This document shows, piece after piece, positions 282 to 15,152 of a DNA stretch of 23,524 nt. The notes under the pieces were generated by a model, which ran no database searches, was not told the origin of the DNA, and was given only the letters and a program-made list of their open reading frames with translations. Numbering within the stretch: the first letter of the stretch is position 1; every line of letters begins with the position of its first letter. The DNA lies in NCBI GenBank assembly GCA_046725875.1, contig JBKOZJ010000136.1:1-23524 (forward strand). Reading direction: 5' to 3'. Both the position numbers and the translations under genes were made by a program. Source of the DNA: Actinomycetota bacterium. GTDB taxonomy: Bacteria; Actinomycetota; Actinomycetes; JAKEEW01.

Positions 282-1733
282 CTATTGGCTCCGTCGCGTG
301 ACCTGCGCTCCGAACAGGTCGTCCCTCTTTCCGGAGCCGAGCGGCTGGACCTTGACCTCGACGAGGACGCGGATAACCGCCCTCTTGCGGTCGAGCGATA
401 TCTCGCCGGTCTCCCACCGCCGGCGGATGTCAGGCGTAGTCAGGTCCATCAGGTCCGGGTGGGCTGACTGTGCGCGTGCCTCCGACTCGTACCTCTCCAG
501 CTCAGGGCGGAGCTTTGCCGTGATACGTGCGAGCTGCTCCCCGTCGATGAGCCCTTCTGCATAGTTGTCGGCTGCGACGTTGAGTCGTGCGCGCACGGCT
601 TCCGCGTTGTCGAGAGCTGCCTGCACCTGGGACTCGTCGGCTCCAGCGAGCGCCGCCTTCGTATCCGCGCGCTCCAGCAGCCCGAGAACAGCCTGTTCGA
701 CCACGAAGTCAACGTCGGCCATCTTTCGCCGCAGGAAGCACCTAGGGCATGAGTATGCGTTTATCGTGCCATGCTGCGGCTGGCCGACTAGGGACCGAAG
801 CGGTGTTGGCGGGTCGCAGCGGCCACACAGCGCGATCCCAGTAAGCAGATGCCTCCGGGCTGTGGTGCCGGGTCCACGATTGGCCTTCATGAGCGCCACC
901 AGCCGGTCGTACGTCGACTCGTCTACGATCGGCTCCCAATCGCCCTTGCCAATTACGGCGTTGCTTCCCTGCTTCGCCTGCTTGCGCTTCTGGTGGACGC
1001 GAAGACCAGCGTTGCGCTCCCGTAGAATGACTTGGCGGAGCATGGTGCCGTCCCATTCCTTGCCTCGTGGTGATGGGATGCAGCGCTTACTGAAGTCGGC
1101 GCTGATCGAGCGCTGGCTCTCACCTTCTAGAAGCCGCCTGATCGCCTCCCGGATGACGGCGGCTTGCTCGGGGTGGAGGATGTCACGGGAGCTGACGTAC
1201 CGGCCGTGTTCGTCAGACTCGACCACGCGCTGCCAGCCGTACGGCACGAAACCATGCGGTTTACCAGCCTCGGCGCGTTCCAGAGTCTTCCGTTGGATGC
1301 GGCGGCTCATTTGCTCCACCTCCAGCCGAGCGAAGACGCCCTTCATCCTGGCGTGCGCCCGGCCGCTCGGGGTGGCGAGATCGAATTCGCCACCCACGCT
1401 CGCTAGTGCGATCTGCTTCTTGTCCGCTAAGGCGATGATGTCTTCAAGCTCGCGAGGGGTACGGGTGAGTCGGTCAACGTCCCACACGATGAGCGCGTCG
1501 ATCTTGCCAGCGTCGATGTCCGCGAGGAGTCGCTGATAGTCGGGGCGGTCCTTGGCGTTGTAGGCGCTCCTGTCGTTGTCGACGTACAGAAGCTCGACCG
1601 GCTCGATCACGTCCCAGCCTTTAGCCCTCGCCAGCTTGCGGCAGTCTTCAATCTGGCGCTGAACACCCAGCGCTGTGCCCTCGTCATCCTTGCTGATCCG
1701 CGCGTAGATCGCGGCCCTAACCCAATCCATCAT
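282..1733 (-). CDS. large serine recombinase (integrase/resolvase family, 483 aa)
   Basis: The N-terminus has a resolvase-type catalytic domain (AAIYARISKDDEG...GVQRQ...DRLTR, catalytic Ser context), followed by the recombinase domain, a CxxC zinc ribbon (CGRC...CPRC) and a C-terminal coiled coil. GC content is lower than the surrounding genes. Confidence 0.9.
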   Translation of the reverse strand: MMDWVRAAIYARISKDDEGTALGVQRQIEDCRKLARAKGWDVIEPVELLYVDNDRSAYNAKDRPDYQRLLADIDAGKIDALIVWDVDRLTRTPRELEDIIALADKKQIALASVGGEFDLATPSGRAHARMKGVFARLEVEQMSRRIQRKTLERAEAGKPHGFVPYGWQRVVESDEHGRYVSSRDILHPEQAAVIREAIRRLLEGESQRSISADFSKRCIPSPRGKEWDGTMLRQVILRERNAGLRVHQKRKQAKQGSNAVIGKGDWEPIVDESTYDRLVALMKANRGPGTTARRHLLTGIALCGRCDPPTPLRSLVGQPQHGTINAYSCPRCFLRRKMADVDFVVEQAVLGLLERADTKAALAGADESQVQAALDNAEAVRARLNVAADNYAEGLIDGEQLARITAKLRPELERYESEARAQSAHPDLMDLTTPDIRRRWETGEISLDRKRAVIRVLVEVKVQPLGSGKRDDLFGAQVTRRSQ

Positions 1734-3062: not shown

Positions 3063-3593
3063 GTGACCCACCGGCTGCAACGTCTCCAGCCAGCCAGCAG
3101 GATCCCTCGCTCCAATCCTGTCCGGGCACGGTGCTCTGCTACTGCGACCGCTAGTGACTGCGGTCAGGCCACGCTCCTTGTCATTGGCCTGGCCGTGGTC
3201 CTGGTCGCTCTGGTGGCGGTGGTCGTCGACGCCTCTCGGCTGTTCCTTTATCGACGGTCGCTCGCTACGGCGGCCGATGGCGCCGCCACCGCGGCGATCC
3301 AAGGCGTGCATGAAGCGGCGATCTATCGTGATCCGGACGCCTTCGCCGACGGAGCGTTACCGATCGATCCGTCGGCCGCAACGGCCGCTGTCCAGCGCTA
3401 CGCACAAGAAAACGATCTCACCGGGCGGTTCGACGATTTCGCCGTCCGGTCGGTGGCGGTAACCGGTACGACCACCGTAACGGTGATCTTCACCGCGACG
3501 GTCGATCTGCCGTTCACGGCAGCGGTCCCTTTAGGGTCCATCGAGCGGCCGCTGATCGTCGTCACCTCCTCAGCGCGGGCGCCGATCGGGTGA
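3063..3593 (+). CDS. Tad-domain (TadE/G-like N-terminal) pilus assembly protein
   Basis: The hydrophobic N-terminal segment followed by VVDASRLFLYRRSLATAADGAATAA matches the putative Flp-pilus assembly TadE/G-like N-terminal domain. The start is inferred at the in-frame GTG at 3063. Confidence 0.6.
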   Translation: MTHRLQRLQPASRIPRSNPVRARCSATATASDCGQATLLVIGLAVVLVALVAVVVDASRLFLYRRSLATAADGAATAAIQGVHEAAIYRDPDAFADGALPIDPSAATAAVQRYAQENDLTGRFDDFAVRSVAVTGTTTVTVIFTATVDLPFTAAVPLGSIERPLIVVTSSARAPIG

Positions 3594-3667
3594 CTTCGCG
3601 CGAGGATCGCCACGCCGCTTACCAGCGTTTCTGTCGTACCCACCGCGATCATCTAGGCTAGATAAGC

Positions 3668-4789
3668 GTGGCTGCCGTGTTTTCAACCGAGGAGATCAGG
3701 GATCTCGAGTCGACGCTGACGTCGATCGAATCCGTGCTCGACCTGGATTCGATGCGACGTGAGATTGCCGACCTCGAGACCCAGGCGGCCGACCCCGACC
3801 TGTGGAACGATCAAGAGCGTGCACCGCGGGTGACGAGCCGGCTGTCGTATCTCCAGGGTGAGCTCGCCCGGGTGTCGAGCCTGCGTCGCAGGCTCGACGA
3901 CCTCGGCGTGCTCGCCGAGCTCGCCGAGGCGGAGGATGACGCGTCCGCTCGGGCGGAGGCCGCCACTGAGCTGGCCACGCTGCGCAAGTCGATTAGCGAA
4001 CTCGAGGTCCGCACGTTGCTCTCCGGTGAGTACGACTCCCGGGAGGCGCTCGTCACGATCCGTGCCGAGGCTGGTGGTGCCGACGCCGCCGATTTCGCCG
4101 AGAACCTCATGCGTATGTATCTGCGCTGGGCCGAGCGGCACGGCTACCCGACCGAGATCTACGACGTGTCCTATGCGGAGGAGGCGGGGATCAAGTCCGC
4201 CACGTTCGCTGTGAAGGCCCCATACGCCTATGGCACGCTCTCGGTCGAGCAGGGAACGCATCGAATGGTGCGCATCTCCGCCTATGACAACCAGGGACGT
4301 CGGCAGACTTCGTTCGCCGGTGTCGAGGTACTGCCGGTCGTCGAGCAAAGCGACCACGTGGACATTCCCGAGGACGAGATCCGCATCGACGTCTTTCGGG
4401 CTAGTGGACCAGGCGGACAGGGTGTCAACACGACCGACTCCGCCGTCCGGATCACTCACTTGCCCACCGGCATCGTCGTCTCTTGTCAAAACGAGCGGTC
4501 GCAGCTGCAGAACAAGGCGCGCGCGATGGAGGTTCTCCGGGCGAAGCTGCTCGAGCGGCGCCGGCAGGAGGAGCAGGCGAAGCTAGACGCTCTAAAGGGG
4601 GACTCCGCCGGATCGTGGGGCACCCAGATGCGGTCGTATGTGCTGCATCCGTATCAGATGGTGAAAGACCTTCGGACCGAGTACGAGACCGGCAATACCG
4701 CTGCCGTCCTTGACGGCGAAATCGACGATCTCATCGAGGCCGGCATCCGCTGGCGGCGCCAGCAGCAGCGCAGCACCGCCGCTGCCTAG
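3668..4789 (+). CDS. prfB: peptide chain release factor 2
   Basis: GGQ motif ([11 protein letters not shown]) and RF2-type conserved blocks ([52 protein letters not shown]). The frame is uninterrupted (no programmed +1 frameshift) with a GTG start. Confidence 0.95.
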
Positions 4790-4820
4790 TCGCCTGCCGA
4801 GCCCCGGACACCTCCGTAAC

Positions 4821-6020
4821 CTAGTGAGCAGCCTTCTCGGACGTGACCCGTTTTGCGGGCATCCGGCGCTGATCAGCGCCCGCGGTGGCTGGACTCGTTG
4901 GGACAGCTGACGGCGGTGTCATGTTCCTTTTCACCGCGTCGAGAATGCTCATTCCCTGCGCGACGAGTCCGGCTGAGATCTCTCCCAGACCATCGGCGCC
5001 GTTGAGGATGCTGACGTTGGCCCGGGCCAAACCGTTGGCCGCCTCCTTGACGATCTGAGGCAGTTGATCGATGAGCATTCGCTCGAGCGCCACTCGATCG
5101 TTGGAGGCTGCTGCCTCGGCCTGTATGGTCATCCGCTCGGCGTCCGCCTGGGCCAATAGCCGGATTCGCTCCGCGTCAGCCTCCGCAGGCTTGACGACCT
5201 CGGCGACCAACTGTTGCTGCCGGAGCACGGCCGCTCGTTCCGCGAGTTCGGTCTGGGCGGCCACCACGTCCCGCTGAGAATGTGCCTGAGCAAGCGGACC
5301 GGACTGAGCGGCCTCGGCCTGGGCTCGGTCCACTTCCGCCTTGTATTGCGCCTGGACGATGGCGGTCTGCCGGGCATATTCGGCCTGCCTCCGCTGTGCC
5401 TCCTGCTCGGCCTCGGCGGCTGCCTGGGTGGCCTGCGCCTGGGCGATCTTCGCCTGCCGCTGGATTGCTGCGTTATGCGGCGCAGCCATAGCATCGATAT
5501 AGCCGGCGTCGCCGTCGTCGATGGACTGGATCTGCAGTGAATCAATGGTCAGGCCGATCTTCGCCATCTCCGCCTTAGACCCGTCAAGGACCTCCTCCGC
5601 GAGCTTCTGTCGCTCTGTAACAATCTCCTCGACTGTCATCGAGCCAACGATCGACCGCAGGTGACCGGCGAAGATGCGGCCGGTCAGCGTGGCCATCTGA
5701 TCCTGGTTCGAGAGGAAACGCTGTCCGGCGTTGACGATGCTCTCGACGTCGGAGCCGACCTTGAAGGCGATGACGGCGCGTACATTCAGCGAAATCCCTT
5801 GCCTCGTCACGCAGGTCTCGGCGACCTCAGCCTCCTGCATCGAAAGGGTCAGGAACCGCACCTTACGAAAGATCGGCAATACCCAAGCCCCGTGTCCGGT
5901 GACGACGCGGAATGGGGTTCCGGCAGGAGCTCGTTTTCCGCCCGAGATGAGCATTGCCTGGTCGGGCGACGGCACCTTGTACCCGAACATCTTGCGGCCT
6001 CCTGGGACTCCGTCAGTCAT
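4821..6020 (-). CDS. flotillin-like SPFH/band-7 protein (alternative start at Met codon about 5990, giving MFGYKVP...)
   Basis: N-terminal SPFH core (MFGYKVPSPDQAMLISGGKR...FRVVTGHGAWVLPIF) followed by a long Ala/Glu/Gln-rich coiled-coil region typical of flotillins. Confidence 0.88.
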   Translation of the reverse strand: MTDGVPGGRKMFGYKVPSPDQAMLISGGKRAPAGTPFRVVTGHGAWVLPIFRKVRFLTLSMQEAEVAETCVTRQGISLNVRAVIAFKVGSDVESIVNAGQRFLSNQDQMATLTGRIFAGHLRSIVGSMTVEEIVTERQKLAEEVLDGSKAEMAKIGLTIDSLQIQSIDDGDAGYIDAMAAPHNAAIQRQAKIAQAQATQAAAEAEQEAQRRQAEYARQTAIVQAQYKAEVDRAQAEAAQSGPLAQAHSQRDVVAAQTELAERAAVLRQQQLVAEVVKPAEADAERIRLLAQADAERMTIQAEAAASNDRVALERMLIDQLPQIVKEAANGLARANVSILNGADGLGEISAGLVAQGMSILDAVKRNMTPPSAVPTSPATAGADQRRMPAKRVTSEKAAH

Positions 6021-6267
6021 TGGCTAGATCGTCCCACTCCATGACATCGACGGAGCGGGCACCGCGCCAGTCGACGACCAGGACAGTCGTGCCCCTCGGC
6101 AACGGTACGTCGGACCAGGCGATATAGGCTTCGGACCCGCCGCGTATCTTCACGAGAACCTCCCCGGGGCCGGCAGATCCACGGGTGCCAACTATGAGTG
6201 TGCCAACTGCCCCGATTACAGCCTCGTCTCGCACTATTTCGACCGCCTGTTCCAAGATGCCGGGCAC
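6013..6267 (-). CDS. NfeD-like OB-fold protein (short form), partner of flotillin
   Basis: An 84-aa beta-rich protein lies immediately upstream of, and overlaps, the flotillin gene, which is the classic nfeD-flotillin operon arrangement. GTG start. No TM segment was found in the upstream extension. Confidence 0.65.
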   Translation of the reverse strand: MPGILEQAVEIVRDEAVIGAVGTLIVGTRGSAGPGEVLVKIRGGSEAYIAWSDVPLPRGTTVLVVDWRGARSVDVMEWDDLAND

Positions 6268-6389
6268 ACTGTAGCGGGGGCTGGGCCGGTCCGCGGCGGC
6301 AGCGCAGTCGCCTGGCTTTAGTCCGGTTTCGTCCGATCACGCTCTTTTGTAGCCGACGCGTGATCAAACTGATAGCTTCGCGAAAATTC

Positions 6390-6583
6390 GATCTGTGACC
6401 TGCAGTTAGTCACGGAAGGTAAACGAATGACGAATGGCTGATCGCGAATTGATCGGTCGGATGATGGCATTCGTCGCTGATCTTCCCTAGCCTGCTGCCC
6501 GCTCGGGTCCTCCGCATAACACGGACGGCCCCGCATGCGATTTATCGAGAAGAAGCTGACCGTCCAACACTCCCTTGGGGGAC
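6390..6583 (+). promoter_or_regulatory. conserved promoter/5' leader block of LPXTG gene 1 (paralogous to 7465-7661)
   Basis: About 80% nucleotide identity to the region upstream of the second LPXTG gene across roughly 200 bp, including the AGTTnGTnAC...AGGTnAACGnAATnACGAAnGG and CGGATGATGGCAT...CCTGCTGnCCGCTCGGG...TAACACGGACGGCCCCG...TGCGATTTAnCGAGAAGAAGCT blocks. GGGGGAC lies just before the start codon. Confidence 0.5.
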
Positions 6584-7306
6584 GTGGTGTCATTAGCCAG
6601 GAAGCTTGCAGCGATCGCCGGCGGCTCGGTCCTCGGGATTATGGCTGCCATTGCGACCGCCAGTCCGGCCGCCGCGCAGGATGCTGATCCGCCCGGCAAC
6701 AACGGCACGATCAAGGTTGACAACGAACCGTTCGACTCGCATCCCAATAACCAGCCACACGTCGGATGCGTGTTCGAGATTGACTTCTACGGATACGACG
6801 AGGGCGACCTGTCCGCCGACGTCACCTTCGAGGCGCACGCACCCACGACCCGTGAGGACGACGACCAGGTCCTGCTGACAGACACAGTCTTCATCGGCGA
6901 GGACGCCGCCGGCGGCGGCACCGACCTGGACGCCTCAAGACAGTACACATTGGACTTCACCGGCATCACGCCACACTCCAAGCAGGGCTTCCACGTCAAG
7001 CTCACCATCAACGCCGAGGGTTCGATCGGCGCTGCCCTGAAGCACAAGGTCTTCTGGGTGACGGGCTGTGTCCCAACCGAGACACCGTCGAACGGGACAC
7101 CGTCGAACGGGACACCGTCGAACGGGACACCGTCGAACGGGACACCGGGTGGCGGGGCACCGCCGGGCGGTGAGGTCCTGCCAAAGACGGGCTCTGGGTT
7201 CCCCGTAGGCAACGCTGCGCTCCTGGCCATCTTCCTACTGGCAGCCGGCGGCGCACTGCTCGTCTCACGTGGAGTGATTCAGCTGCCCTACCGCCGCAGG
7301 CACTGA
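6584..7306 (+). CDS. LPXTG-anchored cell-surface protein 1 (sortase substrate); TTG 6575 or GTG 6587 are alternative starts
   Basis: It has a signal peptide (VVSLARKLAAIAGGSVLGIMAAIATASPAAAQDA) and a roughly 130-aa mature domain with 2 Cys. A (TPSNG)x4 stalk is followed by LPKTG, a hydrophobic segment (AALLAIFLLAAGGALLV) and a basic tail (YRRRH). Confidence 0.85.
   Translation: MVSLARKLAAIAGGSVLGIMAAIATASPAAAQDADPPGNNGTIKVDNEPFDSHPNNQPHVGCVFEIDFYGYDEGDLSADVTFEAHAPTTREDDDQVLLTDTVFIGEDAAGGGTDLDASRQYTLDFTGITPHSKQGFHVKLTINAEGSIGAALKHKVFWVTGCVPTETPSNGTPSNGTPSNGTPSNGTPGGGAPPGGEVLPKTGSGFPVGNAALLAIFLLAAGGALLVSRGVIQLPYRRRH
7081..7155 (+). repeat. perfect 15-bp tandem repeat gacaccgtcgaacgg x4 plus one degenerate unit (encodes TPSNG repeats)
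   Basis: Four identical units span 7081-7140 and a diverged fifth follows. The array is in-frame within the stalk of LPXTG protein 1. Confidence 0.9.
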
Positions 7307-7330
7307 CCTGGGGGCGCAACACCACTCCCC

Positions 7331-7383
7331 AGCAACCAGTCGCCCCGGCTCCAGCCATGGAGCCGGGCGACTGGTTGCTTTAG
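7331..7383 (+). terminator. long GC-rich hairpin terminator after LPXTG gene 1
   Basis: agcaaccagtcgccccggctcc / ggagccgggcgactggttgct forms a stem of about 21 bp (one bulge) with a short loop, followed by ttt. It starts 25 nt after the stop codon. Confidence 0.75.
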
Positions 7384-7464
7384 AGCGGATTGCGCGCATG
7401 CTTCGATGCGTACTCTCGCCCTTTGCTGCGTGTCGTGGTCGAGCCGATACCTTTGCCGAAAATT

Positions 7465-7661
7465 GTGGCTGACCGTAGTTGGTGACATTAGGTGAACGGA
7501 ATAACGAACGGTCGACCCCTACGTAGACCGCTCGGATGATGGCATCCGTTGCCCGTCTCGCCCTAACCTGCTGTCCGCTCGGGGTTCTTCGTGTAACACG
7601 GACGGCCCCGTGTGCGATTTACCGAGAAGAAGCTCGTCATCCACACACATCCCCGGGGGAC
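7465..7661 (+). promoter_or_regulatory. conserved promoter/5' leader block of LPXTG gene 2 (paralogous to 6390-6583)
   Basis: Same conserved blocks as the gene-1 leader. Local hairpins: ggatg-atgg-catcc, cgggg-N22-ccccg and cgag-aagaag-ctcg. Confidence 0.5.
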
Positions 7662-8351
7662 GTGGTGTTAATACGTAGGAAGATCGCAACCATAGGTGGC
7701 GGTTTGCTGCTCGGCACACTGGCGGCGGCCCTAACAGCGGGTCCGGCCCACGCCGACGGCACCGTGGTGCCGGACAACCCGACCTGCTCCGACTTGATCC
7801 CGGGCTCGACCGAGCTGAAGGTCGAGCCGGTGGCCGATGGCACGTTCACCACGGACGGGTTCTCGGTAACTTTGGACGTCCGGATGCTAACCGCCGACGA
7901 CCCCCAGCATGCGGGCGACCAGACCGGTAGCCAGGTGGTCGACTTCACCGCCACCGGCGGCACCGTTATCGGTGTTGTGGTTAAGGGCGGACCGACAGCC
8001 AACTTCTACGACTACCGCCCGGCTGGGGTAACCAGCGGCACAGGCCTGCACGCGCCGGCTCTGGATCAGCAGAATAACCAGAAGTTCGCCGGGCTCAGCC
8101 ACATCTCGTTCTGCTTCGCGCCGCCAACGACGACCACGACGAGCGCGCCACCCACGACGACGAGCGCGCCACCCACGACGACGACTCCGCCGGCCCCGAC
8201 GTCACCACTGCCCACGACGCTGCCGAAGACAGGCACTGGGTTCCCGGTGGGCTCGGCCGCTCTGTTCGCGGTGTTCTTGCTCGCAGTGGGCGGCGGCGCG
8301 CTGCTCCTCTCCCGCGGTGGTATCCAGCTGCCGTACCGCCGCAAGCACTAA
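7662..8351 (+). CDS. LPXTG-anchored cell-surface protein 2 (paralogous ends, unrelated mature domain); GTG 7665 alternative start
   Basis: It has a signal peptide (VVLIRRKIATIGGGLLLGTLAAALTAGPAHADG) and a distinct mature domain with 2 Cys. A Thr/Pro-rich stalk (PPTTTTTSAPPTTTSAPPTTTTPPAPTSPLPTT) is followed by LPKTG, a hydrophobic segment and YRRKH. The upstream Met at 7536 is unlikely because the region encodes no signal peptide and aligns to the non-coding leader of gene 1. Confidence 0.85.
   Translation: MVLIRRKIATIGGGLLLGTLAAALTAGPAHADGTVVPDNPTCSDLIPGSTELKVEPVADGTFTTDGFSVTLDVRMLTADDPQHAGDQTGSQVVDFTATGGTVIGVVVKGGPTANFYDYRPAGVTSGTGLHAPALDQQNNQKFAGLSHISFCFAPPTTTTTSAPPTTTSAPPTTTTPPAPTSPLPTTLPKTGTGFPVGSAALFAVFLLAVGGGALLLSRGGIQLPYRRKH
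8136..8177 (+). repeat. 21-bp tandem repeat acgacgagcgcgccacccacg x2 (PTTTSAP units) in the stalk of LPXTG protein 2
   Basis: Two identical 21-nt units, followed by a diverged third unit. Confidence 0.8.
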
Positions 8352-8364
8352 CCGCGACCATTAG

Positions 8365-8394
8365 CTGAGCTGTGGGCTTGCCCACGGCTCAGCA
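8365..8394 (+). terminator. hairpin terminator after LPXTG gene 2
   Basis: gctgagctgtggg-cttg-cccacggctcagc forms a 13-bp stem (one G-U pair) with a 4-nt loop, 14 nt after the stop. There is no U-tract, which is common in high-GC actinobacteria. Confidence 0.6.
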
Positions 8395-8473
8395 GCACCA
8401 CTTCCCCACGTTGGCCGCCTGGCTCCGCGATAACGAGCCGGGCGGCCGAGGCGTGCTGTCTGGGCATATCAAA

Positions 8474-8547
8474 GTGCCGTTCACTCGATCCCGCGAGAGA
8501 TGAATGGCACTTTCACTCGGACCTATCGACTGAATGTGCCATTCATC
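8474..8547. repeat. three copies of the 10-mer GTGCC(A/G)TTCA (forward, reverse, forward) forming a 12-bp perfect inverted repeat, plus local palindromes, in a non-coding spacer upstream of ftsE
   Basis: gtgccgttca at 8474, tgaatggcac at 8501 and gtgccattca at 8536. gatgaatggcac (8499-8510) and gtgccattcatc (8536-8547) are exact reverse complements with a 25-nt spacer. tgaatgtgccattca is itself palindromic. Local GC is lower and there is no codon bias. Confidence 0.6.
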
Positions 8548-8813: not shown

Positions 8814-9503
8814 GTGATCAGGTTCGAGAACGTCAGCAAGGTCTATCAGCAGCAGCAGCGGCCTGCACTGCGCGCAGTCGACCTCGAGATCGAGCGCGGC
8901 GAGTTCGTCTTCCTCATCGGTGCATCGGGGTCGGGGAAGTCAACCTTCCTCCGGCTGATCCTCAAGGAGGAGCGTCCGACGCACGGCACGATCCATGTGG
9001 CGGGCAAGGATCTCAACCGGCTGTCGAACTGGAAGGTCCCGCACTGGCGCCGCCAGATCGGCACCGTCTTCCAGGACTTCCGCCTGCTCCCGAACAAGAC
9101 GGTCTACCAAAACGTCGCGTTCGCCCTCCAGGTAATCGGTAAGCAGCGCAGCGTCATCCGCCGCGTCGTTCCCGAGGTCCTCGACCTGGTCGGCCTCGCC
9201 GGCAAGGAGGACCGGATGCCGCACGAGCTGTCCGGCGGCGAGCAGCAGCGGGTAGCCGTGGCCCGCGCCTTCGTCAACCGGCCAGTACTGCTCATCGCTG
9301 ATGAGCCAACCGGAAACCTCGACCCGGCGACCAGCGTCGGCATCATGAAGCTGCTCGACCGGATCAATCGAACCGGCACGACAGTGGTGATGGCGACGCA
9401 TGACTCGAGCATCGTCGACCAGATGCGCCGGCGGGTGGTCGAGCTCGAGTTCGGAGAGTTGGTACGGGATCAGGACCGCGGCGTCTACGGCTACCGGCAC
9501 TGA
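8814..9503 (+). CDS. ftsE: cell division ABC transporter ATP-binding protein FtsE
   Basis: Walker [13 protein letters not shown] signature [14 protein letters not shown] and Walker [13 protein letters not shown]. It is followed by ftsX. Confidence 0.93.
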
Positions 9504-14777: not shown

Positions 14778-15152
14778 GGGGGTGAACGGTTTCGACTTTG
14801 GCCTTCGCGTCAAGAGAAGCGGGCCGAGGATGGCAGGGACGATCTCGTTAACCATGCCCTGCGAGAAACAAGCGCCAATGCTAAGCGCGCTGACTTCGCC
14901 CTTGCTGCCTAAGTGAGGGGCTAGCGAAGTCTGTCAGCCCGGGAGTGCTCCCGGCCCGGGATCTGGCATCGTGAGGGAGCTCAACTGGTCGGCTCGGCCG
15001 CGGGGACGACCAGGACGCCAAACAGCGGCTGGGCCTGTCGGCGGCTTGCCTGCGTGACCGCCGGGGTCGAGCAATACTGCAAGCAGGCTGCGCCCGGAGA
15101 AGTCTTGGCTCGGTGCCGAAGGACGCGGGTTCGATTCCCGCCACCTCCACCA
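14778..15152 (+). ncRNA. ssrA: tmRNA (transfer-messenger RNA)
   Basis: 5' GGGGGUG pairs with 3' CACCUCC-ACCA, including a G3-U wobble (the Ala identity element). The 3' end is a tRNA-like T-arm, GGACGCGGGTTCGATTCCCGCCACCTCCACCA. The internal tag ORF gcc aat gct aag cgc gct gac ttc gcc ctt gct gcc taa encodes ANAKRADFALAA. Its position downstream of smpB supports the call. Confidence 0.92.

What the first reader, a model, noticed from the sequence alone, without database searches (positions are those of the whole stretch)
6390..8394. Twin LPXTG surface-protein cassette: conserved 5' and 3' ends flanking unrelated mature domains
Two adjacent genes, each with its own promoter and terminator, share four things. 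The first is a roughly 200-bp upstream block at about 80% nucleotide identity. The second and third are near-identical signal peptides and a near-identical sorting module (LPKTG(S/T)GFPVG(N/S)AAL(L/F)A(I/V)FLLA(A/V)GG.ALL(V/L)SRG(V/G)IQLPYRR(R/K)H). The fourth is a central region with different 130-150-aa two-cysteine domains and different repeat stalks. Conserved ends around a variable core indicate module shuffling or diversifying selection on an exposed domain while regulation and export/anchoring stay constant. No sortase is encoded in the window. The block lies between prfB and ftsE, where actinobacterial synteny normally has unrelated small genes, and its GC is lower than the core.
Basis: seen in the sequence. 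Interest (0 to 1): 0.75.

Follow-up and report, generated by a model that had tools for sequence, protein, structure and literature searches.

The report
Mosaic wall-anchored surface-protein gene pair
Two neighbouring genes in an uncultured actinobacterium encode small surface proteins that share a regulatory leader and a cell-wall anchoring tail but carry unrelated display domains, and the second gene is clearly a recombinant that put a foreign domain into the local "expression and anchoring" frame.

Summary
The core observation holds. Gene A (6587-7306) and gene B (7665-8351) share a ~230-bp upstream leader (74% identity overall, 80% in its 3' 160 nt) and an LPKTG sorting tail (34/42 aa). 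Their central domains are no more alike than shuffled sequence. Two sub-claims are overstated. The signal peptides are only 16/33 identical, and the GC dip covers only the non-coding leaders.

Gene B is a chimera. Its leader and signal-peptide n-region match gene A, as does its tail. Its core (about 7710-8131) is 85-92% identical in DNA to a gene family that elsewhere has an ordinary LPXTG tail, another locus and no such leader.

The prfB-ftsE slot holds cassette genes in every relative found, with different content (C+A, or A+C+D+E). Between two relatives the flanks are 96% identical, but the cassettes only 72-77%.

The A core is under purifying, not diversifying, selection. The tail is attached to at least four unrelated cores.

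The leader matches no Rfam family and occurs only in this small clade. It contains a bipartite DNA box and a conserved hairpin. Whether it acts as RNA or as DNA is unresolved.

Verdict: a real, lineage-specific variant of the known mosaic LPXTG surface-protein theme, of moderate interest.

The parts
6360..6404 (+). Bipartite upstream DNA box of gene A (GTGATCAAACTG ... GACCTGCA); a candidate promoter/operator
   Evidence: An exact 15-mer is found only at cassette leaders. The bipartite pattern GTGAYCRAACYG-N~26-ACCTGCR recurs upstream of cassette genes in all relatives, including L087, where the rest of the leader is unrecognisable.
6356..6586 (+). Conserved non-coding leader of gene A
   Evidence: 74% identical to 7432-7664 (z about 13 against shuffles). 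nhmmer finds it only in this clade. No Rfam match. The indels in the alignment are not multiples of three and the reading frames differ between copies.
6505..6532 (+). Leader hairpin with UAAC in the loop (gene A)
   Evidence: The hairpin is predicted in 8 of 9 leaders. Folding z-scores are -1.7 to -5.1 in 6 of 7 distinct sequences. The stem register shifts between leader types, so strict covariation could not be scored. Strand asymmetry is inconclusive.
6577..6589 (+). Shine-Dalgarno GGGGGA and GTG start of gene A
   Evidence: GGGGGA-N4-GTG is invariant in 8 of 9 leaders. The database protein P0001 (239 aa) starts at this GTG.
6587..6676 (+). Signal peptide of A (30 aa, predicted cleavage AAA|QD)
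   Evidence: Read from the sequence: basic n-region, hydrophobic h-region and an AxA site. The AF2 model has a helix at residues 3-22. Only 16/33 aa are identical to B.
6677..7078 (+). Core domain A: a 7-strand Ig/macroglobulin-like beta sandwich with two conserved Cys
7079..7177 (+). Stalk of A: (TPSNG)x4 tandem repeat plus a Gly/Pro linker
   Evidence: TRF reports period 15, 4.5 copies, 100% match. The strain-level relative L094 has one extra 15-nt copy and no other difference in the gene.
7178..7306 (+). Sorting module of A: LPKTG, GFPVG, a 23-aa hydrophobic segment, and the tail SRGVIQLPYRRRH
   Evidence: 34/42 aa identical to B. L, P, T, G, GFP and Y-R..H are invariant in 8 tails. TIGR01167 scores 13.5 bits, below the 15.9 cut-off.
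7331..7379 (+). Terminator-like 22-bp hairpin after gene A, followed by UUU
   Evidence: Fold energy -64 kcal/mol, z = -7.9. Inverted repeat I1. It also explains the spurious miRNA-like Rfam sub-threshold hits.
7432..7664 (+). Conserved leader of gene B (degenerate box at 7435-7449, hairpin at 7581-7609, SD at 7655-7660)
7665..7709 (+). A-like n-region of the B signal peptide, ending at the 5' recombination junction (CTCGG microhomology around 7705-7715)
   Evidence: In a sliding window, identity to gene A is 70-82% up to about 7705 and then drops. Identity to L006_B rises from 25-50% to 78-90%.
7710..8131 (+). Imported segment of gene B: signal-peptide h/c-region plus core domain B (a beta sandwich with two conserved Cys)
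8132..8219 (+). Stalk of B: Thr/Pro-rich, 21-nt repeats
   Evidence: TRF. In the otherwise identical strain L094 this stalk is replaced entirely, starting exactly at 8132.
8220..8351 (+). Sorting module of B: LPKTG, GFPVG, a hydrophobic segment, and the tail SRGGIQLPYRRKH
   Evidence: 68-80% nt identical to gene A and unrelated to the tail of L006_B. It differs at 12 of 132 positions from L094.
8364..8393 (+). Terminator-like 13-bp hairpin after gene B, with no U tract
   Evidence: Fold z = -3.5.

Best explanation
The prfB-ftsE interval of this uncultured Actinomycetota clade is a variable slot for small wall-anchored surface proteins built on one shared frame.

The frame, in order:
- a ~230-bp leader, made of an upstream bipartite DNA box, a 5' region with a conserved hairpin, a strong GGGGGA ribosome-binding site and a GTG start;
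- a Sec signal peptide;
- one beta-sandwich display domain closed by two cysteines;
- a Pro/Thr/Ser-rich repeat stalk;
- a lineage-specific LPXTG-type sorting signal: LPxTG-[AS]GFP[VI]G, a hydrophobic helix, and a long basic tail ending (L/I)P.RR[RK]H.

Inferred mechanism. Both genes are expressed under the same cis control. Their products are exported by Sec. A sortase encoded elsewhere cleaves the product at LPXT|G and links it to peptidoglycan. The stalk then carries the domain through the wall.

Shown here. Gene B arose by recombination that placed the core of a different, widespread surface-protein family into a copy of the resident frame. That imported piece includes the hydrophobic part of its own signal peptide. 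One junction lies inside the signal peptide (about 7705-7715) and the other at the core/stalk boundary (8131/8132). The frame is conserved by purifying selection on the leader and the tail. Which core sits in the slot, and the stalk, turn over by recombination.
For: Shown:
- End-versus-middle identity with shuffle controls.
- The three-part mosaic of gene B against gene A and L006_B.
- B-family proteins elsewhere carry other signal-peptide n-regions and ordinary LPXTG tails, sit at another locus and have no leader.
- The winA-winB leaders are 80% identical, against about 60% between winA and the orthologous A leaders.
- In the tail, 16 of 34 identical residues use different codons. The similarity is therefore maintained by selection and is not a fresh conversion tract.
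- The tail profile finds only about 10 clusters in 1.84 billion representatives. They are fused to the C core and to a fourth, SpaA-like D core.
- The same slot holds C+A in L002, L010, L074 and L088. It holds an array A-C-D-E, preceded by the tail of a further gene, in L087.
- Between L002 and L088 the flanks are 96% identical, but the cassettes are 72-77% and the spacer 57%.
- Strain L094 has zero substitutions over 4,960 nt. From exactly 8132 it has a different stalk, a tail that is 9% diverged, and a different downstream flank.
- The arrangement is seen in three independent assemblies.

Inferred: Sec export, sortase anchoring and co-regulation.
Against: - No sortase is in the window, and the rest of the genome could not be searched.
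- The curated LPXTG models score below their cut-offs (PF00746 gives 18.3 against 20 for a C-type relative).
- The basic tail is unusually long.
- No promoter was identified and the transcription start is unknown.
- The leader hairpin lacks clean covariation and shows no strand asymmetry.
- The leader beyond the box is missing in L087, which is about as distant as L002.
- Gene conversion between A and B could contribute to the similarity of the ends without a single chimeric origin.
Confidence: 0.7

Rival explanations
1. Concerted evolution only. A and B are old, independent cassette genes whose ends are kept alike by repeated gene conversion between neighbours. No discrete domain-capture event took place.
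For: The in-genome leaders are more alike (80%) than the orthologous leaders (about 60%). The genes are adjacent and in the same orientation. Strain L094 shows that recombination does end at the core/stalk boundary.
Against: Synonymous sites in the tail have diverged (16 of 34 identical residues use different codons), so conversion is not recent. None of the four related lineages has a B core in the slot. The B-like stretch reaches into the signal peptide and is 85-92% identical in DNA to genes with quite different ends. That pattern is what a capture event predicts.
Confidence: 0.2
2. The leader is a structured cis-regulatory RNA, either riboswitch-like or protein-bound. It controls translation or mRNA stability of a small regulon of wall-anchored proteins.
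For: The non-coding leader is as conserved as the coding tail (74% against 76%). The hairpin with a UAAC loop is retained with different 5' arms and registers and has significant folding z-scores. There is an invariant strong SD and a purine-rich block between the hairpin and the SD. No known family explains it.
Against: Whole-leader folding is no better than shuffles (z = -0.1 and -0.7). RNAalifold finds almost no covariation. The predicted partners of the SD differ between leaders. Sense and antisense strands fold equally well. Only about four independent genomes are available. The 3' part of the leader is absent in L087.
Confidence: 0.2
3. The leader is conserved mainly as DNA: a promoter plus operator sites for a shared transcription factor. 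The hairpin is a palindromic binding site or incidental.
For: The most widely conserved piece is the bipartite box at the 5' end, which persists in L087 where the rest is lost. The box occurs only upstream of cassette genes. The hairpin shows no strand asymmetry.
Against: Conservation runs for about 190 nt downstream of the box, right up to the SD. That is longer than typical operator regions. No sigma-70-like hexamers are present.
Confidence: 0.3
4. Whole-gene duplication followed by extreme divergence of the exposed core under diversifying selection.
For: The ends are conserved and the middle cannot be aligned.
Against: The two cores belong to separate, large and well-conserved families. No profile-profile homology is detected between them. 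Both cores are under purifying selection. The B core has close DNA-level relatives with different ends.
Confidence: 0.03
5. Metagenome assembly artefact that joined paralogous genes.
For: All the data come from MAGs or metagenome contigs. The L094 contig changes abruptly at 8132.
Against: The A-B arrangement, with identical junctions, is present in three independent assemblies. The junctions are not repeats shared at 100% identity.
Confidence: 0.02

Closest known systems
Group A Streptococcus emm / mrp / enn genes (the M and M-like protein trio of the mga regulon)
   Same: These are tandem surface-protein genes whose signal peptides and LPXTG ends are the most conserved parts while the mature N-terminal regions differ. 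Signal-peptide identity is 78% across the three families. Natural chimeric genes (emm 5' joined to enn 3') arise by recombination between neighbours (PMC6952200; see also PMC9993116).
   Different: M proteins are coiled coils and related to one another. Here the cores are unrelated beta-sandwich domains from different families. The shared part here includes a ~230-bp non-coding leader. The organism is an environmental actinobacterium, so host immune selection is not the obvious driver. No Mga-like regulator has been identified.
Canonical sortase substrates with an LPXTG cell-wall sorting signal (TIGR01167 / PF00746)
   Same: An N-terminal signal peptide, an LPXTG pentapeptide, a hydrophobic segment and a basic C-terminus.
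   Different: The curated models score below their cut-offs. A GFP[VI]G motif directly follows LPXTG. The cytoplasmic tail is long (13-30 aa) and carries conserved (V/I)x(K/R/Q)LP units and a terminal RR[RK]H. This tail family is restricted to about 10 clusters among 1.84 billion representatives.
Class E sortase substrates of soil actinobacteria (LAXTG; for example the Streptomyces chaplins ChpA-C)
   Same: Small actinobacterial wall-anchored proteins, found in soil and freshwater Actinobacteria (PMC5148588).
   Different: The motif here is LP[KRH]TG, with proline and not alanine at P3. Class E specificity is therefore not the expected match, and the cognate sortase class is unknown.
Lipoprotein and surface-protein paralogue families with a conserved upstream region and signal peptide (Mycoplasma vsp/vlp, Borrelia erp/mlp 'upstream homology box'), and long stabilising 5' UTRs of S-layer genes. 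These comparisons rest on my own knowledge and were not checked here.
   Same: A conserved non-coding 5' region plus an export signal shared by paralogues with different mature parts. The long structured leader sits ahead of a gene that is presumably highly expressed.
   Different: The anchoring chemistry differs (sortase rather than lipidation). There is no evidence of phase variation, silent cassettes or invertible promoters.

Membership tests
LPXTG sortase substrate (cell-wall sorting signal) | N-terminal Sec-type signal peptide | tested here: met
   Both proteins have a basic n-region, a hydrophobic h-region and an AxA site (AAA|QD, AHA|DG), read from the translations. The AF2 model of A has an N-terminal helix at residues 3-22. 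No dedicated signal-peptide predictor was available.
LPXTG sortase substrate (cell-wall sorting signal) | LPXTG pentapeptide followed by a hydrophobic segment and a positively charged C-terminus | tested here: met
   LPKTG, a 23-aa hydrophobic segment, then SRG.IQLPYRR[RK]H. L, P, T and G are invariant in 8 of 8 tails from 5 loci. The tail is longer than usual.
LPXTG sortase substrate (cell-wall sorting signal) | Score above the curated cut-off of TIGR01167 or PF00746 | tested here: not met
   For A, TIGR01167 gives 13.5 bits against a 15.9 cut-off. B gets no hit. PF00746 gives no hit for A or B. A C-type relative scores 18.3 against 20.
LPXTG sortase substrate (cell-wall sorting signal) | Cognate sortase encoded in the genome | not testable with these tools
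   There is no sortase domain in any ORF of the 23.5-kb window or in the 16.8-kb locus L002.
LPXTG sortase substrate (cell-wall sorting signal) | Covalent linkage to peptidoglycan after cleavage between T and G | not testable with these tools
   This needs an experiment.
Sortase-assembled pilins (SpaA type) | Adjacent class C sortase, pilin motif (YPKN) and E-box | tested here: not met
   No sortase is nearby. No YPKN-like motif is present in either translation. Only the D-type relatives hit the SpaA prealbumin-fold domain.
Known cis-regulatory RNA families (Rfam 15) | Match to a covariance model | tested here: not met
   At gathering thresholds the only hit in the window is tmRNA. At E up to 5, nothing credible falls on either leader.
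Structured cis-regulatory RNA (generic) | Secondary structure conserved with compensatory changes | tested here: inconclusive
   The hairpin is kept in 8 of 9 leaders with different 5' arms. The registers shift and RNAalifold finds at most 1 compensatory pair. Only about 4 independent genomes are available, and there is no strand asymmetry.
Integron-type gene cassettes | attC site downstream of each cassette and an IntI tyrosine recombinase | tested here: not met
   The conserved element lies upstream and includes the ribosome-binding site. The UAAC-containing loop does not fit RYYYAAC. The only recombinase in the window is a serine recombinase 4.6 kb away.

The most novel reading that the evidence does not exclude
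The leader, the signal-peptide n-region and the tail together form a 'plug-in' frame. The leader would be a new structured regulatory RNA, or the binding platform of a dedicated regulator, that governs a small regulon of wall-anchored proteins in an uncultured actinobacterial clade. The unusually long conserved cytoplasmic tail ((V/I)xxLP units ending in RRRH) would be read by a dedicated sortase or sorting partner. The conserved ends would double as homology arms through which foreign display domains are repeatedly captured at the prfB-ftsE hotspot.
Probability: 0.2. Interest if true: 0.6.

Novelty: new variant of a known kind. Interest (0 to 1): 0.4.

Why it matters
It gives a clean, base-resolved example of how Gram-positive-type surface proteins are built by recombination. 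A foreign display domain is dropped between a resident expression leader and export signal and a resident anchoring signal, with both junctions mapped. It also shows a chromosomal hotspot, flanked by near-identical housekeeping genes, where this turnover happens in uncultured soil actinobacteria.

It flags three unannotated elements that could be curated:
- a clade-specific leader with a conserved hairpin and DNA box;
- a narrow sorting-signal variant with a long conserved cytoplasmic tail;
- display-domain families with no Pfam model, one of which (B) has a confident predicted fold with no solved relative.

None of this overturns current understanding of sortase substrates.

Tried and rejected
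- Rfam search of the whole window at gathering thresholds and of 6250-8500 at E up to 5. Only tmRNA and hairpin-driven miRNA noise came up.
- Sigma-70 promoter scan: nothing found.
- I read the box for ECF-type -35/-10 spacing by eye. The -10 elements were inconsistent, so I dropped the idea.
- I considered a leader peptide or antisense ORF in the leader. I rejected it because the frames and stops differ between copies and the indels are not multiples of three.
- RNAalifold on MAFFT alignments of the whole leader and of the hairpin gave almost no consensus pairs, because the stem register shifts.
- Whole-leader folding energies are no better than shuffles.
- SD sequestration: the predicted partners are inconsistent between leaders.
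- Sense-versus-antisense folding, meant to separate an RNA role from a DNA role, was inconclusive.
- The word-indexed protein search with the tail profile returned only short fragments and missed known full-length members. I replaced it with the exhaustive representative search.
- A metagenome scan with a degenerate leader pattern gave 17 loci, of which only 2 were real.
- The AFDB50 fold library was unavailable.
- Integron-cassette and pilin readings were rejected (see the membership tests).
- HGT inferred from GC content was rejected.
Full report
**What is at the coordinates**

The interval holds two + strand ORFs. Both are preceded by GGGGGA-N4-GTG. Taking that GTG as the start gives gene A at 6587-7306 (239 aa, the same as database protein P0001) and gene B at 7665-8351 (228 aa).

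Neighbouring genes:
- Upstream lie prfB (3668-4789) and, on the minus strand, a flotillin/Band_7 gene (4821-6020) and a small NfeD-like ORF (6013-6267).
- Downstream lie ftsE (8814-9503), ftsX, an M23 peptidase, smpB and tmRNA (14778-15152).
- No ORF in the window has a sortase domain.

**Checking the observation**

I aligned the two genes segment by segment, with mononucleotide shuffle controls.

| Segment | Identity | Shuffle control |
|---|---|---|
| Leader (231/234 nt) | 74% | 50.8 +/- 1.7% |
| Signal-peptide DNA | 60% | 51.7 +/- 2.4% |
| Core | 54% | 52.2 +/- 1.3% |
| Stalk | 54% | 52.5 +/- 2.3% |
| Sorting module | 73.5% | 52.6 +/- 2.1% |
| Downstream | 52% | at shuffle level |

- The 3' 160 columns of the leader are 80% identical.
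- At protein level the tails are 34/42 identical. The signal peptides are only 16/33 identical, so 'near-identical signal peptides' is an overstatement.
- BLASTP aligns only the tails. Profile-profile comparison of the two core families gives 13% probability of homology.
- Both stalks are tandem repeats.
- Each gene is followed by a strong hairpin (z = -7.9 and -3.5).
- The GC dip (0.59-0.60) covers only the non-coding leader. Windows dominated by the coding bodies of the two genes are 0.64-0.675, like their neighbours.
- No sigma-70-type promoter was found.

**The tail is kept by selection**

Of the 34 identical tail residues, 16 use different codons. The similarity of the tails therefore reflects purifying selection on the peptide and is not a recent conversion tract. 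The non-coding leader is as conserved as this coding segment, which argues that the leader is functional too. Its copies differ by single-base indels, and the ORFs that overlap it are not conserved in frame. It is therefore not coding.

**Gene B is a mosaic**

Homologues of the B core are numerous (at least 212). They usually carry ordinary LPXTG tails, or further Ig-like or DUF11 domains.

The closest relatives are the P0122-P0124 family. These genes sit next to a GGDEF-EAL gene near rpmG-secE-nusG and have no leader of this kind.

A three-way DNA alignment with sliding windows shows three parts in winB.

| winB region | Identity to gene A | Identity to L006_B |
|---|---|---|
| 7432 to about 7705 | 62-82% | 25-50% |
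| about 7710 to 8131 | 28-58% | mostly 85-92% (60-74% over about 7780-7840) |
| 8220-8351 | 68-80% (55% in one window) | 35-62% |

- The 5' junction lies inside the signal peptide. The n-region VLIRRKIATIGGG resembles that of A. The h/c-region LLGTLAAALTAGPAHADGTVV is the B-family signal peptide. All three sequences share CTCGG at this junction.
- The 3' junction is at the end of the core, just after the last cysteine.

**The locus in relatives**

The leader profile (nhmmer) finds copies only in the window and its two strain-level relatives (L001, L094), and in L002/L003, L010, L074, L075 and L088-L093. In every locus where a long enough contig is available the leaders come in pairs.

The leader is absent from 57 other genome loci that encode A-domain homologues. 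A whole-metagenome scan with a degenerate leader pattern added only L074 and L075.

Content of the slot:
- In L002, L010, L074 and L088 the layout is Tad pilus genes - prfB - [C-type gene] - [A-type gene] - ftsE - ftsX - M23 - smpB.
- The window lineage instead has flotillin/NfeD, then A, then B.
- L087 is about as distant from the window as L002 is (ftsE 83% against 86% nt). It has an array: A-type, C-type, D-type (SpaA-like) and a membrane-anchored E gene, preceded by the tail of yet another gene.

**A hypervariable island**

Between L002 and L088, prfB and ftsE are 96% identical in DNA. The C gene is 76.5% identical, the inter-cassette spacer 57.5%, the A leader 76.5% and the A gene 72%.

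Between the window and these relatives, housekeeping genes are 84-86% identical in DNA and 93-95% in protein. The A gene is 65-68% in both.

**Strain level**

L094, from a JGI metagenome, matches the window over 3171-8131 with no substitution at all. The only differences there are two single-base indels, one extra 15-nt TPSNG repeat in the A stalk and one single-base deletion.

From exactly 8132 onward L094 differs:
- The B stalk is a different repeat, (PSET)n in place of TTTSAPP.
- The tail differs at 12 of 132 positions.
- The flank is about 10% diverged, and homology ends after 8448.

The core/stalk boundary is therefore a recombination end point in present-day populations as well. L001 is a third independent assembly. 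It is 99.9% identical over 12.4 kb, which makes an assembly artefact unlikely.

**Selection on the cores**

Across taxa, A-family hits cover only the core, at 62-77% identity. Fifty columns are invariant in a 66-sequence alignment. The exposed domain is thus the most conserved part across genomes, and the ends are lineage-specific. That is the opposite of diversifying selection on the core. It fits a model in which conserved domains move between lineage-specific frames.

**The tail family**

A profile of the tail was searched exhaustively against 1.84 billion cluster representatives. It found about ten true clusters: C-type cores (P0248-P0250, P0253) and a fourth, D-type core (P0251, P0252, P0254).

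- LPxTG-[AS]GFP and a terminal Y/L-R-R-[RK]-H are conserved.
- In the A-type orthologues the cytoplasmic tail is extended to about 30 residues by (V/I)x(K/R)LP units.
- The curated LPXTG models score just below their cut-offs.

I therefore describe this as an LPXTG-type sorting signal variant. It works like a sortase substrate, but formal HMM membership is not met and the sortase has not been located.

**The display domains**

- Neither core has a Pfam or NCBIfam family.
- Their binding partners are unknown. The architecture of a signal peptide, one domain, a stalk and an anchor is that of a displayed adhesin or coat protein.

**The leader**

Nine copies align. Its conserved elements, 5' to 3', are:
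1. A bipartite DNA box, GTGAYCRAACYG-N~26-ACCTGCR. It is found only upstream of cassette genes. It persists upstream of the C- and D-type genes of L087, where the rest of the leader is unrecognisable.
2. TCGGATGATGGC.
3. CCCTAGCCTGCTGCC.
4. A hairpin whose 3' arm and UAAC-containing loop are conserved in sequence, while the 5' arm differs in sequence and register between leader types.
5. A purine-rich block.
6. GGGGGA and GTG.

The hairpin folds better than dinucleotide shuffles in six of seven distinct sequences (z from -1.7 to -5.1).

Several tests of an RNA role gave no clear answer:
- RNAalifold finds almost no covariation.
- Whole-leader energies are unremarkable.
- The predicted partners of the SD are inconsistent.
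- Sense and antisense strands fold equally well.

I conclude that the leader is under constraint and very probably regulatory. The box is most likely a DNA-level promoter or operator element. Whether the hairpin acts in the mRNA, for stability or translation, or as DNA remains open.

**Comparison with known systems**

The closest analogue is the emm/mrp/enn trio of group A streptococci. Those are tandem LPXTG genes with conserved signal peptides and anchors, variable mature parts and natural emm-enn chimeras (PMC6952200).

The differences here are:
- unrelated beta-sandwich cores in place of related coiled coils;
- a shared long non-coding leader;
- an environmental actinobacterial host;
- a narrow tail variant.

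Class E sortases of soil actinobacteria prefer LAXTG (PMC5148588), so the sortase class that would act on these proteins is not obvious.

**Verdict**

The feature is real. The 'diversifying selection' and GC arguments are not supported. It is a new lineage-specific variant of a known theme, of moderate interest. The open question is what the leader does.

Noticed in passing
[not shown]
   Followed up: partly
window 282-1733 (-): A large serine recombinase (Resolvase plus Recombinase domains) sits beside the TadE/Tad pilus genes. At that position the relatives L002 and L088 carry the Tad ATPase and T2SSF genes. This suggests an insertion or rearrangement at the left end of the window.
   Followed up: no
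window 4821-6267 (-): A flotillin/Band_7 gene and a small overlapping NfeD-like ORF lie between prfB and cassette gene A only in the window lineage (also in L001 and L094). Relatives have a C-type cassette gene in that position.
   Followed up: partly
window 8499-8547: A 21-nt inverted repeat (90% complementary, 7-nt spacer) lies in the long B-ftsE intergenic region. The strain-level relative L094 loses all homology with the window just upstream of it, after 8448, and has a different minus-strand ORF there.
   Followed up: no
L002 5174-9810 compared with L088 4206-8801: prfB and ftsE are 96% identical in DNA between these two relatives. The cassette genes between them are only 72-77% identical and the spacer 57%. 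This is a sharply bounded hypervariable island.
   Followed up: yes
L087 1-4264: A more distant relative carries an expanded array upstream of ftsE. It consists of the tail of one gene, then A-type, C-type and D-type (SpaA-like) cassette genes, plus a fifth surface protein that is membrane-anchored and has no LPXTG. Only the bipartite DNA box of the leader is recognisable there.
   Followed up: partly
L002 8625-8789, L010 4540-4696, L075 130-300 (tails of A-type orthologues): In the A-type orthologues the cytoplasmic tail after the membrane helix is extended to about 30 residues by three (V/I)x(K/R)LP units (VIKLPxDGVxRLPxGVTIRLPYRRRH). That is unusually long and conserved for the part of a sorting signal that is normally discarded.
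   Followed up: no
window 7343-7398: Five of the 15 differences between the window and the 99.9%-identical contig L001 cluster in the terminator hairpin and spacer between genes A and B.
   Followed up: no
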